64,000 nt of DNA, taken from Vulcanimicrobiota bacterium (GTDB lineage Bacteria; Vulcanimicrobiota; Xenobia; Xenobiales; JADMJV01). The notes under the pieces were generated by a model. The model was not told the origin of the DNA. It saw only the letters and a program-made list of their open reading frames with translations, and did not search any database. Numbering within the stretch: the first letter of the stretch is position 1; each line of letters begins with the position of its first letter. Where the stretch lies: NCBI GenBank assembly GCA_050250895.1, contig JBFWNU010000002.1:192001-256000 (forward strand). The letters are read 5' to 3'. Of this stretch, positions 52,111 to 64,000 are shown in pieces. A program made the translations under genes and the position numbers.

Positions 52111-52186
52111 AGGGGTGTAGCTCAGTTGGTAGAGCGCCGGTCTCCAAAACCGTAGGTCGCGGGTTCGAGTCCTGTCACCCCTGCCA
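52111..52186 (+). tRNA. trnW: tRNA-Trp(CCA)
   Basis: 76-nt cloverleaf: acceptor AGGGGTG/CACCCCT, anticodon loop CTCCAAA, TTCGAGT T-loop, G73, encoded CCA. Confidence 0.97.
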
Positions 52187-52978: not shown

Positions 52979-54202
52979 TCAGGGCGTTCTACCACGACGC
53001 CCGATGAGCCGATCGAAGGTGATAGCGAGGATTGTACCGCCGCGGTCGTCCTGCGCGTTTCTGGCTATCACGAATGCCGGCTCCACATAGTTGAACGCTA
53101 GGCCATTGCGCCAGAGGACGGCGTCGGCAACCAGTCGCGCTAATCTTGCGTTTCCATCCGCGAAGGGGTGGAAGAAGCAGCAGTCGAGATACGCCATCGC
53201 TGCTCTCCAGATTGGGTGAAGCGCGGTGTCATTCGCTTCTGCCAGCTTTTGGTCAAACAGCGAAAGATTCGCTACGCCATAACGTTCCCGGCCATTCTTT
53301 GCAAAGGCGTCGGTTTCTCGCAAGTGGACTCCGTTCTTGTTTAAGACGAGCTTTTGCCACGCTGTGAGGACTTCAAACGTGAGGGGCTGGGTGGAATCAG
53401 CCCATTTGCGGCATGCCGTCAAAGCGGCCAGCATGTGTTCGTCCTTCTCAGTGCGTTTAATGTACATGACATGTCCATCTGAGCGAAGTGGATTGTGTTG
53501 TCGCCAAAAGTGGCTCCATTGCTCATTCGGAGGCTCGCGCACGTTGAGCCAAACTTCCAGGCTGTCCTCTTGGGTGATCATGGTGGCGCCCACCACCTCG
53601 CCCACCCGCCTGGAAGCTTCTTCTATTTGTGCTTTGGTTGGCTCGGTCCAGCTATGGAAGTGGCCCGAAAAGATTTTCTCGACCAGCGCTCTGGTGTGTC
53701 GGTCGCTGTGAGCGCTCGCCTCCAGGTACCAGTTGAGCGTCAGGGCGCAAGTCCTGTACCAGGCATCCGAGGTCTCGGTCCTCCGAATAATCATGGGCAC
53801 TAAGCGGGCGGCAACTGTCTCGATCTGGGCGGCCGCGTTTGACCCGGTCTTCATTGGTACTTCTGCTAGAATTCCGTCGAACTCCTCCAGAAATTCTCGC
53901 CACTGCTGTACAGCCGCGAGCACCGTTGTGACAATGTTTTCGCCTGGACCTTCCGGGTCAATTTCACTGACCACGGGGCCGCCGTCCTCGCTTGAGCGCC
54001 AACCGGCTATCCAGATTCCGAACTCTTGGATCAACAGCTGATCAAGACAGCCCTCGAGATAGTAGTCGTCGTTGTCTTGGTTGGAGTGCCAATCGTGAGT
54101 TGACAAGAAACCTTCGACTATAGCGCGGGCTCGGTCTCGATCAAAGTGTCGGCTCTCGGGTAACACGTCGTTCCACCGTAACCTATACGAACAGATGTCC
54201 AT
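52979..54202 (-). CDS. Fic-domain protein
   Basis: HPFADGNARLAR Fic motif; visibly more AT-rich codons than the flanks. Start trimmed to ATG 54202. Confidence 0.85.
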   Translation of the reverse strand: MDICSYRLRWNDVLPESRHFDRDRARAIVEGFLSTHDWHSNQDNDDYYLEGCLDQLLIQEFGIWIAGWRSSEDGGPVVSEIDPEGPGENIVTTVLAAVQQWREFLEEFDGILAEVPMKTGSNAAAQIETVAARLVPMIIRRTETSDAWYRTCALTLNWYLEASAHSDRHTRALVEKIFSGHFHSWTEPTKAQIEEASRRVGEVVGATMITQEDSLEVWLNVREPPNEQWSHFWRQHNPLRSDGHVMYIKRTEKDEHMLAALTACRKWADSTQPLTFEVLTAWQKLVLNKNGVHLRETDAFAKNGRERYGVANLSLFDQKLAEANDTALHPIWRAAMAYLDCCFFHPFADGNARLARLVADAVLWRNGLAFNYVEPAFVIARNAQDDRGGTILAITFDRLIGRRGRTP

Positions 54203-54323
54203 TGTGGTGCGCTTTCTCACCAGCAGAGAGTTAAGCCTTCGTGAACTCACGTTCCACCAGTTCACCAGTACCCCGATCCGGGCCTGAGACAGGACTGTGC
54301 CCGATGGATACCAATCCAACCAG

Positions 54324-54361
54324 GCTTGTTCAGACGGCGGAATTCCGCCGTCTGAACAAGC
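54324..54361. repeat. Perfect 38-bp palindrome with no spacer
   Basis: GCTTGTTCAGACGGCGGAA|TTCCGCCGTCTGAACAAGC. Confidence 0.95.
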
Positions 54362-54506
54362 TCTCTTCTGGGGGTCTTCGGCCGGAGGCCGCAGCCGGGG
54401 CGCGCAGACGACCTTAAGGGCCTTGAAAGAGGCGTTGGCGGGGCGCCCCATTCACGTGATCAGAGGGGTTAGTGGGGGTGAAAGAGGTCGATGGCCGCGA
54501 TCTCCG

Positions 54507-55139
54507 TCAAAAAGGTCCACTGTATTCGGACTCAACTCGAGGAAGAGGGTAGGGTGGCGTGGTCTCTCGCACCTCTTCGATGAGTTCCCCGTCGGGGGGC
54601 GGAAAAACGTCCTCCAGCCTCAGACACAGGTCAGGGAAGGCCGGGCTTCGGAGGGTCTCCGCCTCGGTGTAGGTGCCGGCGATGCGATAGCTGTCACCAT
54701 CCAAAGACAGCACCTCGGCCAGGGCCGGATAGGGCCGCAGGATCCAGTATTCTTTCACGCCCGCCGTGGCGTAGAGCCTGAGCTTCCGGACCCGGTCGTG
54801 GCGCTCGGTGCTAGGCGAGAGGATCTCGACGGCCAGGGTGGGCGCCCCTTCGATATGGGTCGGCGTGATCTGAGCCCTGTCGCAAACCACAATCAGGTCA
54901 GGCTGGACCGCGTCATACTCCGAGAGACGAACGTCGATTGGGGACACGAAGACCCGGCAGGGACGGCCTTTGAAATGCGCGTGAAGCAGTGCGAGTAGCT
55001 CTGTGAGAACGGCCTGATGGGCGACTCGCGGCGCCGTCATCGCATAGGGCCGGCCGTCGATGATCTCCCAGCGAGACTCGTCGTCCCAGGTGCGGTACTC
55101 GGCCCAACTGACCTTGCGTCCGCTTCGCGATGACTCCAT
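54507..55139 (-). CDS. Uma2-family endonuclease
   Basis: RWEIIDG, VQPD, EILSPST..D..K..Y, EYWI; TATAAT 6 nt upstream. Confidence 0.92.
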   Translation of the reverse strand: MESSRSGRKVSWAEYRTWDDESRWEIIDGRPYAMTAPRVAHQAVLTELLALLHAHFKGRPCRVFVSPIDVRLSEYDAVQPDLIVVCDRAQITPTHIEGAPTLAVEILSPSTERHDRVRKLRLYATAGVKEYWILRPYPALAEVLSLDGDSYRIAGTYTEAETLRSPAFPDLCLRLEDVFPPPDGELIEEVRETTPPYPLPRVESEYSGPF

Positions 55140-55237
55140 CGTTGGATTATAGCCGATTTTCTCTGAGCGGTGTATCGGGCGGTGGCGGGGCAAACGGCTC
55201 CAAAGGACACCGGCCCGAGCGAACGAAACCCTCCACT

Positions 55238-55570
55238 ATGCCTGATCACCGCGACTGGGAGTTGGCCAAAGAGTTTCGGCGCCGCCTCGAGCCCCTGCTC
55301 GGAGAGCGCCTGCTCGAGGTCAGGATGTTTGGCTCGCGAGTGCGGGGCGACCACCGGCCCGACTCTGACCTCGACTTGTTCGTCAAGGTCGATACCGCCC
55401 CGGTCAAGACGCGATGGGCCATCTACGACGTGGCTACGGACATCAACGCAGAAACCGGCTTTGCCATTCCGCTGGCGCCGTTGGTGATGGCCGAGGCCGA
55501 GTTCGAGCATCTTCGCAATCGGGAACGGCGACTGGCTCGCGACATCCTCGAGGAGGGCGTGGTCGTTTGA
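55238..55570 (+). CDS. Minimal nucleotidyltransferase (MNT) antitoxin
   Basis: MFGSRVRGD...DSDLDL motif. Confidence 0.9.
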   Translation: MPDHRDWELAKEFRRRLEPLLGERLLEVRMFGSRVRGDHRPDSDLDLFVKVDTAPVKTRWAIYDVATDINAETGFAIPLAPLVMAEAEFEHLRNRERRLARDILEEGVVV

Positions 55571-55977
55571 CCGACGAGAACCGGCGCCGCAACGCGCGCG
55601 ATGAGTGGGCCCTGGCCGAGTCCTCCTGGGCCGCCGCCGAGTTGTTGGGTCAGAATGGCTTCCATCGGGACGCCGTGGCCCGCTACTACTATGCCGCCTT
55701 GCATGCTGCTCGGGCAGCTTTGTTGACTCACGGAGAGGAGCCCCGCACCCACCTGGGCGTGTCCTCGCGATTCAACGAGCTCTTCGTTCGGGGCGACCTG
55801 ATGCCAACCAGCAGTTCGCGGGTGCTGGGCCGGTTGCAGCGCGAGCGGGAACAGGCCGACTACCATCGCGATGTCATCTTTCGCGAGGCGGACGTCGAGG
55901 AGGCGCGGCAGAGCGTCGAAGCGTTCCTGGAGGCTTTGCGGGGCCTGTTGACCCAGGGCGGGTGGCTCGAGTCGTAG
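55567..55977 (+). CDS. HEPN domain protein
   Basis: RYYYAALHAARAAL, PRTH.GV, R.QADY; TTGA overlap with the MNT. Confidence 0.88.
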   Translation: MTDENRRRNARDEWALAESSWAAAELLGQNGFHRDAVARYYYAALHAARAALLTHGEEPRTHLGVSSRFNELFVRGDLMPTSSSRVLGRLQREREQADYHRDVIFREADVEEARQSVEAFLEALRGLLTQGGWLES

Positions 55978-58368: not shown

Positions 58369-58725
58369 ATGAAGTATCTCGCTACCTTCTTGCTGACCCT
58401 CAGCCTGACCATGCCCCTCTGGGCCGATGGCAAAGCCCCTGCTGACGACGCCTCGCTGGCCGTCGGGGCCAAACTGTTCAAGCGCACTTGCGCTCCCTGT
58501 CATGGCAAGGAAGGAAAAGGCGACGGCCCCGCCGCCGCTGGGATCAAGCCACCGCCTCGCGATCTCACCACCGCCCCGCTGCTCCAGGGCGACAGCGACC
58601 AGGACATCTTCAACACCATCAGCAACGGCGTGCCGAAATCGGGCATGGCCGGATTTGCCAAGCAGCTCAAAGAGGAAGACCGCTGGAAAATCGTCTCTTT
58701 CGTCAAGAGTCTACGCAAGAAATAG
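58369..58725 (+). CDS. Monoheme c-type cytochrome
   Basis: Signal peptide, CAPCH, PPPRDL, GMAGF distal Met. Confidence 0.92.
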   Translation: MKYLATFLLTLSLTMPLWADGKAPADDASLAVGAKLFKRTCAPCHGKEGKGDGPAAAGIKPPPRDLTTAPLLQGDSDQDIFNTISNGVPKSGMAGFAKQLKEEDRWKIVSFVKSLRKK

Positions 58726-58746
58726 CCGAGAAGGTGCCGGTGCACC

Positions 58747-60273
58747 GTGCACGAACCACCTCCGATGGTGCGATGGCTATTGGTGGGTCTAGTTTCGGCA
58801 CTGCTGCTCTCCGGCGCTGCCCAGGCCCAGAGCAGACTTCCCGAGGGCTCGCCGGTGCGCACACTGTGCATCGCCTGCCACACTCCCGACGAGACCGGTC
58901 GCATTCCGACCATCGAGTCGATCCGAACTACCCCTGAGGGGTGGCGACGCATTGTCGACCGGATGAACCGCAACTACAAACTCGACCTCGACGAAGAGTA
59001 CGCGGCCGAGATCGTGGCCGACCTGGCCAACTCGCTCGCCCTGTCGCCGGCCGAGATGGCCGACCTGGAGGGCTATCTGCGCACCCGCGCCCTGCCCACC
59101 GACGACCCGGCCCTGCCCGAGACCTTCGCCCGCAGTTGCGCGTCTTGTCACGGCTACGAGGTCATCGCCAGCCAGCGCCGGACAGAGGCCGCCTGGATGC
59201 GGCTCGAGGGCTTTCACCGAGGCTATTTTCCGATCATTCCGATGATCTACCGCGACCTGGATTGGCCCACCGCGGCTCAGGCTGCTCTCACCGCCCTGAC
59301 GGCGCGCTTTCCCTTCGAGACCGACTGGACGCCGGGCGAGCCGGTGACGGGCGAGTTCCTGGTGGCCGGGCATCAAGCCGGTAAGGGCCAGTATACCGGC
59401 CGCCGCACGGTGGCCGAAGACGGCTCGACCTACACCGAGACGCTCACCTTTGAAGACGGAACCACCGTCGAAGGCAGCGGCCAGGGTCAGGTCACGGCCG
59501 GCTATCACTGGCGCTTCGAGGGGGCGACCCGCAGCCTGGTCGGCTCGGCCACCCCCGAGGGCTGGTTCGACTTTCGTTGGCAGGGCCCCCTGGGGGCCAC
59601 CGGCAGCGAGCGGGCCGTGGCCGCCAATCAACCGGGGCTTTTGGCGGTGAGCCCCGAGGCTATCGTCACCGAGGGCGGCGAAGTCACCGTCACGCTTTAT
59701 CGCAGCGGGTCGGGCAAAGAGGTCAAGTCGAGCTTGCCGGTGGCCGGGGTAGAAGAGTCCGGCCCGGCGCTGAAGGTAAAGCTGAAGGTGCCGCGTCTGA
59801 CCCGACCACAAGAGGTCAAGCTGAGCCTCGCCGACACGCCGGGCGAGGTTACCCTCAAGCTAGCTCCGCGCGTCGACGGCATTCGTATTAGCCCCGAGGA
59901 CCCGGCCGCCCGCATCGGCGGGGGCAAGATTCCCCTGGTGCCCTTGCAGTTCGAGGCCCGCGCGCTGAGCTTCGGAGCCGACGGCAAACCCAACACCGAC
60001 GACGACATCAGCCTCGGCCTGGTCCAGCCAACCTGGTCGCTGGAGGATTATGCCGGCACCGACATGGCTGACGACCCCTCCTACATCGGCACACTCGACG
60101 CCAGCGGCCTGTTTGCTCCCGCCACCCTGGCCCCCAACCCCGAGCGAGTGCGCCGCAACAACACGGGCGATGCCTGGGTGGTAGCTCGCTATCGCCCCAC
60201 CGGTGCGCTCAAGACCTATCGGGCTCGAGTGCTGCTCAAGGTGGTCGTGCCCGAATATCGAGGTAACGTCTGA
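58747..60273 (+). CDS. qhpA: Quinohemoprotein amine dehydrogenase alpha subunit
   Basis: CIACH and CASCH; R.TPEGW...V.RM; ARIGG; G.FAPA...PNPER...NNTGD. Confidence 0.9.
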   Translation: MHEPPPMVRWLLVGLVSALLLSGAAQAQSRLPEGSPVRTLCIACHTPDETGRIPTIESIRTTPEGWRRIVDRMNRNYKLDLDEEYAAEIVADLANSLALSPAEMADLEGYLRTRALPTDDPALPETFARSCASCHGYEVIASQRRTEAAWMRLEGFHRGYFPIIPMIYRDLDWPTAAQAALTALTARFPFETDWTPGEPVTGEFLVAGHQAGKGQYTGRRTVAEDGSTYTETLTFEDGTTVEGSGQGQVTAGYHWRFEGATRSLVGSATPEGWFDFRWQGPLGATGSERAVAANQPGLLAVSPEAIVTEGGEVTVTLYRSGSGKEVKSSLPVAGVEESGPALKVKLKVPRLTRPQEVKLSLADTPGEVTLKLAPRVDGIRISPEDPAARIGGGKIPLVPLQFEARALSFGADGKPNTDDDISLGLVQPTWSLEDYAGTDMADDPSYIGTLDASGLFAPATLAPNPERVRRNNTGDAWVVARYRPTGALKTYRARVLLKVVVPEYRGNV

Positions 60274-61631
60274 TGCAAGCGATCCCGGTCCACTTTATCG
60301 ATCCCTCCCACATCTTCCATCCCGAGCACGGGGGCGTGTTCGAACTCTCCCCCGAGGCTCTCGAGCTTTACCAGAAGGCCATCGACGGCGAGGTGGCCGA
60401 GGGGCCGGCGATGCAAGAACTGCTGGCGGCCGACCTGCTCAGGGCGGGCGAGGCTCCGGCTTTTCCGCCCCCACCCAAAGACCTGACTCTACGTTCGCTG
60501 GTGGTCAACCTGACCCAGAACTGCAACCTGGCCTGCGTCTATTGTTATGCCGACGTGTTGCCCACGGCCAAGAAAAAGCGCCAGATGGAGCCCGAGACGG
60601 CTCGGGCGGCTATCGACTTTCTCCTTCGCCAGTCGGGCTCGGTGCGCACTCTCAACCTGACCTTCTTCGGCGGCGAGCCGCTGCTGAACTTTCCTCTGCT
60701 CAAGCAGTCGGTGCTCTACGCCGAGGACGAGGCTCGCAAGGCGGGCAAGAAGCTCCGCTACTCCCTGACCACCAACGCCACCCTGGTTACCGAGGAGATG
60801 GCCAGGTTTCTCGATGAGTACCGCATCGGCGTCTCCATCAGCCTCGACGGGCCGCCCGAGGTACAAGACGGCCAGAGGCCCTTCGTCAACGGTCGGGGCT
60901 CGTCCAATCGGGTGCTCAAAGGGGTCGAGACCTTGCTCACCCACGTGCGCTCGCGGCCGGTGGGGGCCAGGGTGACCCTGACGCGTCAGAGTGGCTCGGT
61001 GGTGCCGATCTTCGATTATCTGCACGAGCTGGGCTTTTTCGAGGTGGGGCTGGCGCCGGTCACCGACCCGCGGGCCGAACTGCACCTGGGCGACGAAGAG
61101 ATGGAGCGCCTGCTCGACGACTTTCGCATTTTGAGCGAGCGCACCGTGCAAGAAGCCCGGGCCGGACGCTACCTCGGCTTTTCGAATCTCACCAATATGC
61201 TCAGCAGCATTCACGCCGGCCGCAAACGCGTCTATCCGTGCGGGGCCGGCCTGGGTCTGTTCGGGGTCGATTACACCGGCAAAATTTCCCTGTGTCATCG
61301 TTTTCAAGGGAACGAGGACTTCGTGTTGGGCGATGTCTGGCAGGGCCTGGATGCCGAGGCGGTTCACCGCCTGCGCCGGGAAGTGCACCCGGTCAACAAG
61401 CTGGGCTGTCACACTTGCTGGATTCGCACCCTGTGCCGAGGCGGCTGTTATCACGAGGCGCTCGAGCGCCACGGCGACCATCGCAAGCCCAACCTGCATA
61501 CCTGCGATTGGCTGCGTGCCTGGGTGAAGCTGGTGCTGGAAGTTTATCTGACCCTGGCCCGCGAGGCCCCCGGTTTTCTCGACCGGCTCTCGGGCTCTCG
61601 AGCCAGAATGACGGAGGGTGTAGTGGTATGA
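60273..61631 (+). CDS. qhpD: Radical SAM/SPASM thioether-forming maturase
   Basis: CNLACVYC, FFGGEP, YPCGAG, LCHRF, CHTCWIRTLCRGGCYH, HTCDW; located between qhpA and qhpC. Confidence 0.93.
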   Translation: MQAIPVHFIDPSHIFHPEHGGVFELSPEALELYQKAIDGEVAEGPAMQELLAADLLRAGEAPAFPPPPKDLTLRSLVVNLTQNCNLACVYCYADVLPTAKKKRQMEPETARAAIDFLLRQSGSVRTLNLTFFGGEPLLNFPLLKQSVLYAEDEARKAGKKLRYSLTTNATLVTEEMARFLDEYRIGVSISLDGPPEVQDGQRPFVNGRGSSNRVLKGVETLLTHVRSRPVGARVTLTRQSGSVVPIFDYLHELGFFEVGLAPVTDPRAELHLGDEEMERLLDDFRILSERTVQEARAGRYLGFSNLTNMLSSIHAGRKRVYPCGAGLGLFGVDYTGKISLCHRFQGNEDFVLGDVWQGLDAEAVHRLRREVHPVNKLGCHTCWIRTLCRGGCYHEALERHGDHRKPNLHTCDWLRAWVKLVLEVYLTLAREAPGFLDRLSGSRARMTEGVVV

Positions 61632-61906
61632 GCGAGCATGTGCGACGACTCAACGGAGGCGGCGAGGTGGAGGGGCAAACCCTCGAAGAGCTGGGCTGCA
61701 CCACGGTCTTCGAGCCCGGCTGGGAGACCGACGGCGACGGGGGGCAGCAGAGTCTGTGCCGACCGATGTATCGCGACCTCTACGGCTGCGCCGGCGACTG
61801 CTGGTGGCCGGCCCAGGTGCCCGACGAGATGTCGCAATACCCTTCCTGGGTCGAAGACTGTCAGGCCATCGAGCAGGACTGGAAGGACATCGACTTCATC
61901 AAATGA
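61628..61906 (+). CDS. qhpC: Quinohemoprotein amine dehydrogenase gamma subunit (CTQ precursor peptide)
   Basis: GCTTVFEPGWE..LCRPMYRDLYGCAGDCWWPAQVPD; ATGA overlap with qhpD. Confidence 0.95.
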   Translation: MSEHVRRLNGGGEVEGQTLEELGCTTVFEPGWETDGDGGQQSLCRPMYRDLYGCAGDCWWPAQVPDEMSQYPSWVEDCQAIEQDWKDIDFIK

Positions 61907-62940
61907 GATGGCTACTGGTTTTGCTGGTCTTGCTGGCGCCGGCGTTTGGCGACGAGAGTCTGGTGGTGGTGGGCCGGGGAGGGGCGGCCATCGTCAACCC
62001 CGCCACCCTGGCCACCGAACTGGCCATTCCCACCCGCGGTGGGGCTCCGGCCTTTCTCTATTCCAACCTCGATCGCTCTCGCCTCTACTTGATCACCGGC
62101 GCCCGCGAACTCGTCGAGATCCTGGATGTCAAAAGCGGCAAGCTGACGCGCACCCTCACCCTCTCCCAGCCCAAAGAACTGCCTTATTTAAGGGCCTTTA
62201 TCTATGGGCTGTGCACCGACCCGCAAGAGAAGTTCCTCTATCTCTACATCCTGCCCAGCGTCCGAGAGCGCGAGTCGATTCGCGCCGAGGATTGCTACGT
62301 AGCCGTGGTCGATCTCGAAAGCGGCAAGAAGGTGGCCACCATTCCCGCCCCCGCCGGCATCAGCATGCTGGCCTTCAAGAACGACGGCAGCGAGATGTAT
62401 TTGCTGGGCCGCGACGTTTATGTGATGGACGCCAGGACGCGCAAGATCACGCTCAAAGAGTCGATACGCCATCCCGAGTATCAGGGCGAGGGCGAGACCG
62501 ACATCATCGCCGAGTGGGTCCACTATCGCGAATGCGACTCGGTGGCCTCACTGCCGATCTTCACCGAGGACCCTTCTACCAAGCGTTGGTTCATCGGCTT
62601 GTTGACCCTCGACCTCAAGACCGGCGAGCTCGATCGTTATGAAGCGGGTCCGCCCCCAGAATCGCTGGTCCCCTTTTCGGCCGTGATCACCCCCGACCGC
62701 CAGAAGGGTTACATCATCTTCAACCACCTGGTCGAGATGAGCCTGGCCGAGCGCAAGGTGACGCGCATGGTTCGCTTGCCCAAGTCGTATAGTATCTTGA
62801 CCGTCTCCGGCGACAGTTCGCGCCTGTTCTTCTGCGGCTCGGGTCGCAGCGTGGCTCGCTACGACATCGCCACCGGCGAGGTGGTCCAGCAGGTCGAGAT
62901 GCCCTGGGATACCACCGACATGATGGTGGTTCCACGCTAG
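61903..62940 (+). CDS. qhpB: Quinohemoprotein amine dehydrogenase beta subunit (beta-propeller)
   Basis: Signal peptide MRWLLVLL; propeller blades; ATGA overlap with qhpC; canonical ADCB order. Confidence 0.8.
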   Translation: MRWLLVLLVLLAPAFGDESLVVVGRGGAAIVNPATLATELAIPTRGGAPAFLYSNLDRSRLYLITGARELVEILDVKSGKLTRTLTLSQPKELPYLRAFIYGLCTDPQEKFLYLYILPSVRERESIRAEDCYVAVVDLESGKKVATIPAPAGISMLAFKNDGSEMYLLGRDVYVMDARTRKITLKESIRHPEYQGEGETDIIAEWVHYRECDSVASLPIFTEDPSTKRWFIGLLTLDLKTGELDRYEAGPPPESLVPFSAVITPDRQKGYIIFNHLVEMSLAERKVTRMVRLPKSYSILTVSGDSSRLFFCGSGRSVARYDIATGEVVQQVEMPWDTTDMMVVPR

Positions 62941-63776
62941 TGGAGCGGGCGATGGTGGCCAACCATCCGCGCCAACTCGAGTGGGACCGCTGGTGCCCGC
63001 CCGAGCTCGAAGGCCTGTTGCGCGAGGTGGTCGAGCCTCTGGCCGCCGGCCTGGAAGAACGCCTCGGTTCGCCCGCCTACAGTCGGGTTTATTTCGGCAA
63101 CGAGTCGTGCGAGATTCGTCTGCCCGAGCCGGCCGCTTTGTCTCGCATGCTAGAAGCGGCCCAGCAGCGAGGTCTCGCCCTCACCCTGTTGACGCCGCAA
63201 GTCAACGATGCCTGCCTGGAGAAGGTCGAGCAGTTGCTGGATCTTCTGCCCAGCGGGACTGAAGTGGTGTGCAATGATTGGGGCGTGCTTGGGCGGGTGC
63301 GCCAACGCCAGCTCAGGCCCGTGCTGGGCCGGTTGCTTTCGCGTTGCCTGCGCGACCCGCGCTCGCCCGAGCATCCGGCCTGGGAGGCCTCGCCTCTGGC
63401 CCACCCTCACTTTCGCGAAGCCCTGGCCGGCTGGGGAGTCGAGCGAGTGGAGGTGGACGTGCCCCTGGGACCGGCCGCCCCCCCCGCTCCGGAGTGGGGG
63501 CTCGAGGCCAGCCTGCGAGCGCCGTTCGTGCATGTGGCTTCGGGCCGCGTCTGTGCGGTGGGGTCGCTGTCGGCCCCGCCCGAAGAGAAGTTTCAGACGG
63601 CCGGAGCCTGCCAGCGCGAGTGCCTGACCTATCTGACGCGGCTGGATTCACCCACCCTCGAGTCGCAGCTTTTTCACCGCGGCAACGCCGCCTTTGCGGT
63701 GGCTGAGGCGACCACCCTGGTGGGTGCCCTTCACGGCTTCTCGCGCCTGGTCTTTGACCCGGAGCTGCTGTTTTGA
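62940..63776 (+). CDS. Peptidase U32-like protein (UbiV-like partner)
   Basis: RVYFGNESCE, LTLLTP, EVVCNDWG, GRLL, GRVC...ACQREC, GNA; 1-nt overlap with qhpB. Confidence 0.7.
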   Translation: MERAMVANHPRQLEWDRWCPPELEGLLREVVEPLAAGLEERLGSPAYSRVYFGNESCEIRLPEPAALSRMLEAAQQRGLALTLLTPQVNDACLEKVEQLLDLLPSGTEVVCNDWGVLGRVRQRQLRPVLGRLLSRCLRDPRSPEHPAWEASPLAHPHFREALAGWGVERVEVDVPLGPAAPPAPEWGLEASLRAPFVHVASGRVCAVGSLSAPPEEKFQTAGACQRECLTYLTRLDSPTLESQLFHRGNAAFAVAEATTLVGALHGFSRLVFDPELLF

Positions 63777-64000
63777 AGATTCTGGCGCCGGCCCGTTCGG
63801 CCATGGAAGTGGAGATGCTGGTCCATCACGGGGCCGAAGAGCTCTATTGCGGGCTGACCCCGCCCGAGTGGCACGAGCGCTTCGGTGGCCTCACCTGGCT
63901 CAATCGACGCTCGCCCCTGGGCGGCAACTTGCAGAGCTACGAAGAGCTGGGAGAGATGGTGCGACGAGCCAGGATTCCGGTCTTTCTCACCTTGAACGGT
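63773..64000 (+). CDS. Peptidase U32-family protein (5' part; runs off the window)
   Basis: Manual translation from TTG 63773: MKILAP...GAEELYCG...LNRR...NL....L..MV.....PVFLTLN, a typical U32 N-terminus; TTGA overlap. Confidence 0.8.
   Translation, partial: MKILAPARSAMEVEMLVHHGAEELYCGLTPPEWHERFGGLTWLNRRSPLGGNLQSYEELGEMVRRARIPVFLTLNG

What the first reader, a model, noticed from the sequence alone, without database searches (positions are those of the whole stretch)
58369..64000. QHNDH operon coupled to a U32 gene pair: candidate O2-independent CTQ cofactor biosynthesis
Seen: cyt c-qhpA-qhpD-qhpC-qhpB continues without gaps (1-nt and TTGA overlaps) into two U32-family genes. The first carries Cys clusters (GNESCE, GRVC, CQREC), and no qhpG is visible. 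Established: in Paracoccus/Pseudomonas, CTQ formation needs the FAD monooxygenase QhpG to hydroxylate the QhpC Trp using O2. U32 proteins (UbiU/UbiV, TrhP, RlhA) are Fe-S proteins performing O2-independent, prephenate-dependent hydroxylation, and UbiU/V work as a pair. Inference: this pair may replace QhpG and hydroxylate a peptidyl Trp anaerobically, which would be a new role for U32 proteins and a new quinone-cofactor route. Leader processing in place of QhpE is an alternative role.
Basis: partly seen in the sequence, partly recalled or inferred. Interest (0 to 1): 0.92.

Follow-up and report, generated by a model that had tools for sequence, protein, structure and literature searches.

The report
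U32 pair replaces QhpG in QHNDH operon
An amine dehydrogenase operon carries, in the slot where related operons keep the oxygen-using enzyme that starts its tryptophan-quinone cofactor, a pair of iron-sulfur proteins of the kind that add hydroxyl groups without oxygen, which points to a second, untested way of making this cofactor.

Summary
The window ends in a translationally coupled operon: cyt c-qhpA-qhpD-qhpC-qhpB-X-Y, continuing beyond the window into qhpF (ABC exporter) and qhpE (S8 protease).

- **Y** is a true U32 protein, nearest UbiU and TrhP.
- **X** matches no Pfam or NCBIfam model. It is a UbiV-like TIM barrel with four invariant Cys, and its best PDB match is the U32 structure 5d88.
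- **Recurrence:** qhpB-X-Y(-F-E) recurs in 16 of 80 X-family genome loci and 5 of 80 metagenome qhpC loci.
- **No QhpG at those loci:** none of these 21 loci holds a QhpG-like flavoprotein. None of the 19 QhpG-type loci holds X or Y.
- **Swaps:** the two types interchange at least three times on a QhpD tree. In Novosphingobium a QhpG-like gene occupies the same qhpB-qhpF slot.
- **Subfamily and transfer:** qhp-linked Y proteins form one clade. qhpC and X are absent from all relatives searched, so they probably arrived together.
- **This genome:** it has no dedicated QhpG.

Caveats:
- One genome (G406) has both X-Y and QhpG.
- Many qhp loci show neither.
- The hosts look mostly aerobic.
- Nothing has been tested biochemically.

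Best reading (about 0.6): X-Y is a UbiV/UbiU-like Fe-S hydroxylase that makes the CTQ precursor on QhpC without O2. I found no paper describing this link.

The parts
58369..58725 (+). Small c-type cytochrome (118 aa), first gene of the operon; probable electron acceptor of the dehydrogenase
   Evidence: PF00034 E 2e-13
58747..60273 (+). qhpA, QHNDH alpha subunit (508 aa)
   Evidence: TIGR03908 277 bits, cut-off 274.35; PF09098, PF09100 and PF14930
60273..61631 (+). qhpD, radical SAM/SPASM thioether-forming maturase (452 aa)
   Evidence: TIGR03906 439.5 bits, the best hit although below its cut-off of 453; PF04055
61628..61906 (+). qhpC, gamma subunit and CTQ precursor (92 aa). It keeps the four invariant Cys and the C-x3-C-W-W site.
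   Evidence: NF037958 114 bits, cut-off 50. In the alignment with 16 other QhpC, C4, C24, C34, C38 and W40 of the core are invariant.
61903..62940 (+). qhpB, beta-propeller subunit (345 aa from MRWLL...)
   Evidence: TIGR03907 134.5 bits, the best hit although below its cut-off of 223; ORF
62940..63776 (+). X: 278-aa UbiV-like, U32-related TIM-barrel protein with invariant C57, C205, C224 and C228. Proposed small Fe-S subunit of the hydroxylase.
   Evidence: No Pfam or NCBIfam family. 1209 representative homologues. Invariant Cys. AF2 pLDDT 93.7. Best PDB match 5d88, Z 12.4. hhalign 85% to the UbiV-like half of this genome's fused U32.
63773..64000 (+). Y: U32-family protein (333 aa). It runs on to window-equivalent 64774 (L002 5774-6775). 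Proposed large Fe-S subunit. qhpF (L002 6754-8379) and qhpE (L002 8373-9002) follow outside the window.
   Evidence: PF01136 126 bits. UbiU 97.7 bits and TrhP 85.1 bits, both far below their cut-offs. Invariant C26, C179, C186, C196, C250, C253, C315 and C321 in 42 sequences. qhpF PF00664+PF00005 and qhpE NF049966 101.5 bits.

Best explanation
X and Y form a two-subunit iron-sulfur enzyme built like UbiV-UbiU. In this operon it does the job that the FAD monooxygenase QhpG does in Paracoccus and Pseudomonas.

Proposed sequence of events:
1. QhpD cross-links QhpC in the cytoplasm.
2. X-Y hydroxylates the CTQ-precursor Trp (the second W of the conserved C-x3-C-W-W site) without O2, presumably with prephenate as oxygen donor as in other U32 systems.
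3. QhpF exports the gamma subunit.
4. QhpE removes the leader.

What is shown and what is inferred:
- Shown: gene order and coupling, family relations, conserved Cys, recurrent linkage, and complementarity with QhpG.
- Inferred: that X and Y bind each other and hold Fe-S clusters, that QhpC is their substrate, that the reaction is Trp hydroxylation, and the oxygen source.
For: 1. One coupled operon, cyt c-qhpADCB-X-Y-qhpF-qhpE, with overlapping stop and start codons.

2. Y is a U32 protein (PF01136, 126 bits; nearest UbiU and TrhP). It has the family's invariant C-x6-C plus further invariant Cys.

3. X has the UbiV-type Cys topology.
- X: C57...C205-x18-C224-x3-C228.
- UbiV: C39...C180-x12-C193-x3-C197 (paper passages).
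- Its confident model is closest to the only solved U32 structure: 5d88, Z 12.4, rmsd 3.9, 191 aligned, next hit 10.9.
- Its profile aligns to the UbiV-like half of this genome's fused U32 at 85%, E 6e-6, with the CX3C motifs in register. Against the UbiU-like half it reaches only 6%.

4. X and a Y-type U32 lie in the same locus in 61 of 80 X-family loci. They are fused in one protein, P0150.

5. qhp-X-Y recurs, always with X before Y and after qhpB where qhpB is seen.
- 16 of 80 genome loci.
- 5 of 80 metagenome qhpC loci chosen without regard to X.

6. Complementarity with QhpG.
- 0 of these 21 loci hold a QhpG-like gene.
- 0 of 19 QhpG-type loci (15 metagenome, 4 plasmid) hold X or Y.
- Novosphingobium has a QhpG-like gene exactly between qhpB and qhpF.
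- A 65-row QhpD tree needs at least 3 switches between the two types.

7. qhp-linked Y proteins form one clade: 19 of 37 rows, SH-aLRT 100.

8. Co-transfer. qhpC was found in 1 of 401 genomes of the phylum sample and X in 1 of 16 genomes of the family, G000 only in both cases.

9. QhpG search in other XY genomes. Nine of the 10 XY-type genomes searched with a QhpG profile have only partial flavoprotein hits: at most 141 bits, none past model position 350 of 423.

10. G000's best QhpG-profile hit.
- It is halogenase-like: 5bva 77 bits against QhpG 7ctq 37 bits.
- It sits among housekeeping genes.
- It has N-terminal or full-length homologues in the 8 genomes of genus g2 and a fragment in the same-genus genome G088. 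In genus g3 only its C-terminal domain matches.
- All 15 relatives lack qhpC and X.

11. Established knowledge.
- UbiU-UbiV carry out three O2-independent ring hydroxylations with prephenate oxygen.
- RlhA and TrhP are linked to O2-independent hydroxylation of RNA bases (paper passages).
- QhpG dihydroxylates the Trp of cross-linked QhpC with O2 (passages).
Against: - No experiment exists. Direct hydroxylase activity has not been shown in vitro for any U32 protein, and no protein substrate is known.
- Genome G406 has X-Y-qhpB' and, about 10 kb away on the same contig, a complete qhpADCBFE cluster with a QhpG-like gene of 248 bits. The two hydroxylase types can therefore coexist.
- 60 of 80 metagenome qhpC loci show neither type. 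Most are short, but L120, L131, L147, L158 and L159 have 6-9 kb on both sides. The hydroxylase can be unlinked, so its absence from a locus proves little.
- In a 23-row flavoprotein tree, G000's C3 protein falls on the QhpG side of a 97/94 split, on a long and unresolved branch.
- G000 has four COX1-family genes, and most XY hosts are Acidobacteriota. No anaerobic lifestyle explains the swap.
- X matches no U32 or UbiV model directly. The X-Y profile similarity is modest: 77%, E 2e-5.
Confidence: 0.6

Rival explanations
1. X-Y is a QHNDH maturation factor for another step. Candidates are oxidation of dihydroxy-Trp to the quinone, formation of the Cys-Trp bond, or electron relay for QhpD. Under this reading an unlinked flavoprotein, such as the halogenase-like C3 protein, hydroxylates the Trp with O2.
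For: - The hydroxylase gene is unlinked or unseen in many qhp loci.
- G406 carries both X-Y and QhpG.
- G000's C3 flavoprotein groups loosely with qhp-linked flavoproteins.
- A halogenase-like flavoprotein sits directly upstream of qhpA in L127.
- The host can respire O2.
Against: - The canonical systems need no such extra factor (gene set qhpABCDEFGR; passage).
- X-Y and QhpG-like genes replace each other at locus level and on the QhpD tree.
- The C3 protein's N-terminal flavoprotein part has homologues in 9 of 15 relatives, all of which lack qhp. It is only 26% identical to the L127 protein.
- G401 has no QhpG-profile hit above 34 bits.
Confidence: 0.2
2. X-Y rides in the operon but acts on something other than QhpC. 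Possible targets are a small aromatic molecule, a quinone or an RNA base, as with other X-Y pairs.
For: - Most X-Y pairs (45 of the 61 loci with both) have no qhp genes. They sit beside B12-radical SAM, FAD/CCG/ETF or other genes.
- All known U32 substrates are a lipid quinone precursor and RNA.
Against: - qhp-linked Y proteins are a separate clade on a long stem.
- The position between qhpB and qhpF is fixed, with overlapping codons.
- X is absent from all 15 family relatives and came with qhp.
- This genome already has a fused housekeeping U32 of 839 aa.
Confidence: 0.12
3. X-Y is a peptidase, as the U32 family's old name suggests, and processes the QhpC leader.
For: The family name only.
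Against: - A QhpE-type S8 protease is encoded two genes downstream here. It is also detected in 10 of the 16 XY genome loci.
- The four invariant Cys of X and the invariant Cys of Y fit Fe-S oxidases.
Confidence: 0.03

Closest known systems
UbiU-UbiV (O2-independent ubiquinone hydroxylase, U32 family)
   Same: - A two-gene pair: a larger U32 protein with C-x6-C and a smaller partner whose first Cys lies far upstream of C...C-x3-C.
- Several hydroxylations on one aromatic ring.
- It stands in for flavin monooxygenases.
   Different: - Y scores 97.7 bits against the UbiU cut-off of 440. X does not hit the UbiV model at all.
- No UbiT-like gene was seen.
- The proposed substrate is a cross-linked protein, not a prenylated phenol.
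- Y has eight invariant Cys.
QhpG (peptidyl tryptophan dihydroxylase, PDB 7ctq)
   Same: Same operon context, and the same slot in the Novosphingobium-type clusters. Same proposed reaction on QhpC.
   Different: QhpG is an FAD monooxygenase that takes both O atoms from O2. X-Y share no homology with it and carry Cys motifs of Fe-S proteins.
Canonical qhp operon (qhpABCDEFGR of Paracoccus and Pseudomonas)
   Same: qhpA, D, C, B, E and F are all present. The CTQ and thioether residues of QhpC are conserved.
   Different: - No qhpG. X-Y is inserted between qhpB and qhpF.
- A cytochrome c gene leads the operon.
- No AraC-type qhpR was seen next to it.
TrhP and RlhA (U32 proteins for ho5U in tRNA and ho5C in rRNA)
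   Same: U32 domain; O2-independent, prephenate-linked hydroxylation of an aromatic heterocycle.
   Different: Y reaches 85 bits against the TrhP cut-off of 534. The context is RNA-free. This genome has a separate fused U32 that is closer to TrhP and UbiU.

Membership tests
Peptidase_U32 / U32 oxidases (for Y) | Match to PF01136 above the gathering score | tested here: met
   126.1 bits against 22.4, residues 89-313
Peptidase_U32 / U32 oxidases (for Y) | Conserved four-Cys motif of the type C-x6-C-x15-C-x3/4-C | tested here: inconclusive
   C179-x6-C186 is invariant. C196, C250 and C253 are invariant in the qhp subfamily, but the spacing differs from the consensus. The motif is taken from paper passages.
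Peptidase_U32 / U32 oxidases (for Y) | Binds a [4Fe-4S] cluster and supports O2-independent, prephenate-dependent hydroxylation | not testable with these tools
   Needs protein chemistry and labelling
UbiU (NF047963) and TrhP (NF011996) equivalogs (for Y) | Score above the curated equivalog cut-off | tested here: not met
   97.7 against 440, and 85.1 against 534. Y is a separate subfamily.
Peptidase_U32 / UbiV (for X) | Match to PF01136 or to the UbiV model NF047965 | tested here: not met
   No hit at E up to 10 (Pfam) or up to 1 (NCBIfam)
Peptidase_U32 / UbiV (for X) | UbiV-type Cys topology C-xn-C-x12-C-x3-C | tested here: met
   C57...C205-x18-C224-x3-C228, invariant in 64 sequences. The spacing is 18, not 12. 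CX3C aligns with that of a UbiV-like domain.
Peptidase_U32 / UbiV (for X) | U32-type TIM-barrel fold | tested here: met
   5d88 ranks first by VIA-align: Z 12.4, rmsd 3.9, 191 aligned, next entry Z 10.9. Foldseek ranks it 4th, TM 0.45/0.50. The margin over other TIM barrels is small.
Peptidase_U32 / UbiV (for X) | Profile-level homology to U32 proteins | tested here: inconclusive
   hhalign 77%, E 2e-5, to the Y family. 85%, E 6e-6, to one UbiV-like domain.
QHNDH (qhp) system | Alpha, beta and gamma subunits plus the radical SAM maturase QhpD | tested here: met
   QhpA and QhpC score above their cut-offs. QhpD (439.5 against 453) and QhpB (134.5 against 223) are best hits below their cut-offs.
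QHNDH (qhp) system | CTQ Trp and the Cys residues of the gamma subunit | tested here: met
   Invariant C4, C24, C34, C38 and W40 of the core alignment, including this QhpC
QHNDH (qhp) system | QhpE protease and QhpF exporter | tested here: met
   NF049966 at 101.5 bits is the best hit, below its cut-off of 165. The ABC exporter has PF00664+PF00005.
QHNDH (qhp) system | QhpG flavoprotein | tested here: not met
   There is no QhpG-clade gene in the operon or window. The genome's best hit is a halogenase-like fusion protein on another contig. Homologues of its flavoprotein part occur in 9 of 15 relatives, all of which lack qhp.

The most novel reading that the evidence does not exclude
A U32-type two-subunit Fe-S enzyme hydroxylates a tryptophan inside a protein without O2. 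That would give an oxygen-independent route to the cysteine tryptophylquinone cofactor and the first protein substrate for U32 oxidases.

Beyond this operon, X defines a large unannotated UbiV-like partner family: 1209 representative sequences, mostly from anaerobic bacteria and archaea. Paired with a U32 protein, it forms a general anaerobic hydroxylase module. That module has been combined with methyltransferases, B12-radical SAM enzymes and FAD/CCG/ETF electron carriers.
Probability: 0.5. Interest if true: 0.9.

Novelty: new variant of a known kind. Interest (0 to 1): 0.8.

Why it matters
- **CTQ biogenesis.** It is thought to need O2 through QhpG. A U32 route would explain how the cofactor can be made next to the O2-sensitive radical SAM enzyme QhpD, or under anoxia.
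- **U32 substrates.** It would extend U32 oxidases from lipids and RNA to proteins.
- **An assay system.** It would offer a compact, genetically defined system (QhpC, QhpD, X, Y) with a mass-shift read-out. Direct hydroxylase activity of a U32 protein has so far not been shown in vitro.
- **A function for the X family.** It suggests a function for a large family that Pfam and NCBIfam do not cover.

Tried and rejected
- **The search for related loci with the wide X alignments** A1 and A2 found no conserved stretch. A six-sequence alignment, A3, worked.
- **Searching the phylum for qhpC** to find related clusters gave nothing but G000: 1 of 401. Comparative loci therefore came from the whole-collection scans.
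- **A three-sequence QhpG profile was too narrow.** The Novosphingobium QhpG-like protein scored only 32 bits. I widened it to 14 qhp-linked flavoproteins (A6). That profile then also picks up generic halogenase-like proteins, so scores alone do not decide. I used coverage, a tree and conservation in qhp-less relatives.
- **The PDB best hit as a test for QhpG** does not discriminate either. The qhp-linked L127 protein is also closest to halogenases.
- **Sequence search of Y against PDB chains** gave no hit.
- **Plasmid check.** The X query matched 8 records, 7 Clostridium and 1 Roseburia. None is among the 20 listed QhpD-bearing records or the ten genera named for the 79 QhpD matches; 11 further records are not named.
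- **The Cys-rich 302-aa gene** convergent on qhpE was considered as another substrate. It has no homologue in any other locus and was dropped.
- **Complex prediction** of X + Y + QhpC core with QhpC as partner gave 'weak support'.
  - Score 0.54 (runs 0.54, 0.58, 0.54); best of 3 controls 0.00.
  - The mark was reached by 58 of 80 solved complexes and 2 of 110 mismatched pairs. Scores of 0.60 or under were reached by only 7 of those 80 and by both mismatches.
  - Runs agree in at least 27% of contacts. The partner's pLDDT was 35-37.
  - I count this as no more than a hint. The X-Y interface itself was not scored.
- **The look-up of sequencing runs** listed no RNA holder, only three DNA runs with small shares of 0.05-0.10.
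- **Supplements** of the papers were closed and not seen. The gene-cluster survey in the QhpG paper's supplements, and the U32 family figures of the UbiUV paper, may bear on distribution claims.

Full report
**What is there.**
- The last 5.6 kb of the window holds seven same-strand genes.
- Profile searches name them:
  - a c-type cytochrome;
  - QhpA (TIGR03908, 277 bits, cut-off 274);
  - the radical SAM maturase QhpD (TIGR03906, 439.5 bits, just under 453);
  - QhpC (NF037958, 114 bits, cut-off 50);
  - QhpB (TIGR03907, 134.5 bits, under 223).
- Two further genes follow, here called X (62940-63776) and Y (from 63773).
- The window is G000:C2:192001-256000. Reading on along the contig (L002) completes Y at 333 aa.
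- Two more coupled genes follow Y:
  - an ABC exporter of the QhpF type (PF00664+PF00005);
  - an S8 protease whose best model is QhpE (NF049966, 101.5 bits, under 165).
  - TAG/GTG share one base at qhpB-X;
  - TTGA at X-Y;
  - the qhpF ATG lies 22 nt inside Y.
- After qhpE comes a convergent, unrelated gene.
- QhpC keeps the invariant Cys residues and the C-x3-C-W-W site of the CTQ precursor.

**What X and Y are: Y.**
- Y is an ordinary member of Pfam Peptidase_U32 (126 bits).
- It is closest to UbiU (97.7 bits) and TrhP (85.1 bits), but far below both equivalog cut-offs.
- In 42 close relatives eight Cys are invariant, including C179-x6-C186.

**What X and Y are: X.**
- X matches nothing in Pfam or NCBIfam.
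- It belongs to a large family: 1209 representatives at E up to 1e-3 and 598 at up to 1e-10.
- Its four Cys (C57, C205, C224, C228) are invariant in 64 sequences.
- The pattern is one distant Cys followed by C...C-x3-C. The UbiUV paper gives that pattern for UbiV (C39, C180, C193, C197; passages).
- With that alignment AlphaFold2 gives a confident TIM barrel, pLDDT 93.7.
- VIA-align puts the only solved U32 structure, 5d88, first: Z 12.4, rmsd 3.9, 191 residues, next hit 10.9.
- Foldseek ranks 5d88 fourth among generic TIM barrels.
- Profile comparisons:
  - 77% (E 2e-5) between the X and Y families;
  - 85% (E 6e-6, 207 columns, CX3C in register) between X and the UbiV-like C-terminal half of this genome's own 839-aa fused U32 protein;
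  - 6% against its UbiU-like half.
- So X-Y looks like a UbiV-like and UbiU-like pair. X fails formal membership by sequence models.

**X and Y belong together.**
- A scan of one genome per species with a six-sequence X alignment returned 80 loci.
- In 61 of them a Y-type U32 gene lies in the same locus, usually abutting X.
- Ten long X-family proteins were scanned:
  - one is an X-U32 fusion (P0150);
  - five carry a C-terminal methyltransferase;
  - two carry a B12-radical SAM plus a glycosyltransferase;
  - two carry nothing recognisable.
- The 64 loci without qhp come mostly from anaerobe-rich groups: Thermodesulfobacteriota, Bathyarchaeia, Dehalococcoidia and Omnitrophota.
- Recurrent neighbours in those 64 loci:
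  - B12-radical SAM, 15 loci;
  - FAD_binding_4, 14 loci;
  - CCG, 8 loci;
  - ETF, 7 loci;
  - DAHP synthase, 5 loci.
- This fits a redox module that needs an electron sink, and in places a shikimate-pathway link. That reading is inference.

**The link with qhp recurs.**
- Sixteen of the 80 loci carry qhp genes with X-Y. They are mostly Acidobacteriota, plus one Planctomycetota, one Desulfobacteraceae and one contig labelled Clostridia.
- X always precedes Y. Where visible, the order is qhpA-D-C-B-X-Y-F-E.
- An independent scan of metagenome contigs with a QhpC alignment gave 80 loci.
- Sorted by phmmer and by HMMs:
  - 5 have X (3 of them also Y; the other 2 end inside or after X), directly after qhpB;
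  - 15 have a QhpG-like flavoprotein;
  - none has both;
  - 60 show neither.
- Most of the 60 are contigs of a few kb. Seven (L113, L114, L120, L131, L136, L147, L158) run from qhpB into unrelated metabolic genes. L159 has qhpADCBFE with 6-9 kb of unrelated flanks.
- Maturation genes can therefore lie elsewhere.

**Complementarity with QhpG: references.**
- QhpG references came from annotated plasmids.
- The Paracoccus pantotrophus protein matches PDB 7ctq, 'peptidyl tryptophan dihydroxylase', at 2e-43.
- None of the 16 genomic XY loci has a QhpG hit.
- None of the four plasmid clusters has X or Y.
- In Novosphingobium the gene between qhpB and qhpF is a divergent flavoprotein. Its only PDB match is 7ctq. 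That is the slot X-Y fill here.

**Complementarity with QhpG: trees.**
- The QhpD tree has 65 rows: 15 XY, 19 QhpG-type and 31 unlabelled. Only rows with at least 340 aligned positions were kept.
- The proteobacterial QhpG-type clusters form one clade.
- The other clade is mainly XY-type. The Novosphingobium-type and a halogenase-like type (L127) are nested inside it.
- At least three switches are needed.
- The Y tree has 37 rows. Only hits with at least 220 aligned positions were kept. The 19 qhp-linked Y proteins are one side of a branch with support 100 and a long stem.

**This genome.**
- qhpC occurs once in G000.
- qhpC occurs in none of 400 other genomes sampled from its phylum.
- X occurs once in G000 and in none of 15 family relatives.
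- A tRNA-Trp gene and toxin-antitoxin-like genes lie 2-6 kb upstream.
- The operon was probably acquired as one piece, X-Y included.
- G000 has four COX1-family genes, so it is not an obligate anaerobe.

**Is there a hidden QhpG in G000?**
- The best QhpG-profile hit is a 765-aa protein on contig C3: 70.6 bits with the narrow profile and 141 bits with the wide one.
- For a QhpG role:
  - in a small tree it falls, on a long unresolved branch, on the QhpG side of a 97/94 split.
- Against a QhpG role:
  - its N-terminal half is closer to flavin halogenases (77 bits) than to QhpG (37 bits), and it is fused to a CxxCxxCC domain;
  - it sits among housekeeping genes;
  - it is only 26% identical to the qhp-linked L127 protein;
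  - it has N-terminal or full-length homologues in the 8 genomes of genus g2 and a fragment in the same-genus genome G088, while in genus g3 only its C-terminal domain matches;
  - all 15 relatives lack qhpC and X.
- I conclude it is not a dedicated QhpG, but this cannot be excluded outright.

**Other XY genomes.**
- With the wide profile, best hits are 34 to 123 bits. None reaches beyond model position 350 of 423:
  - G401: 34;
  - G402: 79;
  - G403: 123;
  - G404: 105;
  - G405: 65;
  - G407: 73;
  - G408: 63;
  - G409: 54.
- The best hits of G401 to G404 group away from qhp-linked flavoproteins.
- The exception is G406. Its contig carries X-Y followed by a qhpB-like gene.
- About 10 kb further on it carries a complete qhpADCBFE cluster with a QhpG-like gene of 248 bits.
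- The two types can therefore coexist in one genome, each apparently with its own cluster remnant. This recalls the coexistence of UbiUV with UbiIHF, but it weakens any claim of strict exclusivity.

**Mechanism.**
- Established, from passages read:
  - QhpG inserts two O atoms from O2 into the Trp of QhpC after QhpD has formed the thioether links, in a QhpCDG complex;
  - UbiU-UbiV are a heterodimer with one [4Fe-4S] cluster each, and they are needed for three O2-independent hydroxylations;
  - the oxygen for those hydroxylations comes from prephenate, and RlhA and TrhP are linked to O2-independent RNA hydroxylation;
  - a 2024 review lists only ubiquinone and RNA substrates for U32 oxidases.
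- Inference: X-Y does the QhpG step on cross-linked QhpC in the cytoplasm, without O2. Export by QhpF and leader removal by QhpE follow.
- A complex prediction with QhpC as partner gave only weak support: 0.54 against 0.00 for controls, partner pLDDT 35-37. It is filed under Tried and rejected.

**Novelty.**
- No paper in the searchable library holds both 'quinohemoprotein amine dehydrogenase' and 'U32'.
- The 16 papers since 2021 that mention cysteine tryptophylquinone were seen as a listing only. None points to such a route by title or abstract start.
- A search for U32, prephenate, hydroxylase and peptide found two papers, neither on proteins.
- The QhpG paper does not contain 'U32'.
- Supplements were closed.
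- I rate this a new variant of a known kind: a known maturation system with its hydroxylase swapped for a member of a known enzyme family acting on a new class of substrate.

**Verdict.**
- Observation: confirmed.
- Interpretation: partly supported.
- Confidence that X-Y is a QHNDH maturation factor: about 0.85.
- Confidence that it is the O2-independent replacement of QhpG: about 0.6.
- Interest: 0.8.

Noticed in passing
window 52111-52186 (+), and 52979-55977: A tRNA-Trp gene lies about 6 kb upstream of the operon. It is followed by a 490-aa gene of no family, an MntA-like nucleotidyltransferase antitoxin gene (55130-55570) and an overlapping partner ORF. Since qhpC and X are absent from all relatives searched, this looks like the edge of an acquired island.
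   Followed up: partly
G000:C6, L092 5947-8466 (-): This genome's other U32 gene is a single 839-aa protein. Its N-terminal half is like TrhP and UbiU, and its C-terminal half is like UbiV (NF047965, residues 593-822). It is a natural U-V fusion.
   Followed up: partly
G000:C3, L091 6923-9217 (-): A 765-aa fusion of a halogenase-like flavoprotein, a CxxCxxCC domain and an unknown C-terminal domain. The CxxCxxCC plus C-terminal part has dozens of stand-alone paralogues across the family's genomes.
   Followed up: partly
L002 8999-9907 (-), window-equivalent 66998-67906: A convergent 302-aa gene with a twin-arginine-like stretch and a very Cys-rich C-terminal third. It has a faint PqqD-like hit (E 0.28) and no homologue in any other qhp or X locus.
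   Followed up: partly
L031 9908-12982 and L178 1-10724 (one contig of G406): X-Y is followed by a qhpB-like gene with no qhpC nearby. It lies about 10 kb upstream of a complete qhpADCBFE cluster that has a QhpG-like gene 3 kb further on.
   Followed up: yes
L127 4904-6451 (+): A flavoprotein that ends 4 nt before qhpA is closer to flavin halogenases (3e1t, 117 bits) than to QhpG (45 bits). It may be a third kind of Trp hydroxylase in qhp clusters.
   Followed up: partly
L018 6471-11930; L099, L100: Some clusters read qhpA-qhpC-qhpB with no qhpD between A and C. L018 continues into X-Y but shows no qhpF or qhpE within 9 kb.
   Followed up: no
L022 1569-2648 and five other loci (L018, L151, L168, L171, L172): A xanthine-dehydrogenase-family FAD subunit (PF00941+PF03450) recurs about 5.5 kb upstream of qhpC. 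Four of the six loci are XY-type (L018, L022, L168, L172); the other two contigs end just after qhpC or qhpB. It may be a molybdenum aldehyde oxidoreductase taking the product of the amine dehydrogenase.
   Followed up: no
L008, L010, L015, L024, L084: A DAHP synthase gene lies 2-3 kb upstream of X in five loci without qhp. This is a possible tie to the shikimate and prephenate pathway.
   Followed up: no
L022: The contig is labelled 'uncultured Clostridia', but its Y and QhpD nest among Blastocatellia and soil-metagenome sequences on very short branches. It may be mis-binned.
   Followed up: no
P0193, P0196, P0199, P0203, P0206, P0212, P0243, P0251, P0284: Proteins named from Bacillus, Schinkia, Aneurinibacillus, Oikeobacillus and Brevibacillus isolates are 45-47% identical to Y over 97% of its length, in the range of the qhp-linked clade. 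Their gene context could not be seen.
   Followed up: no
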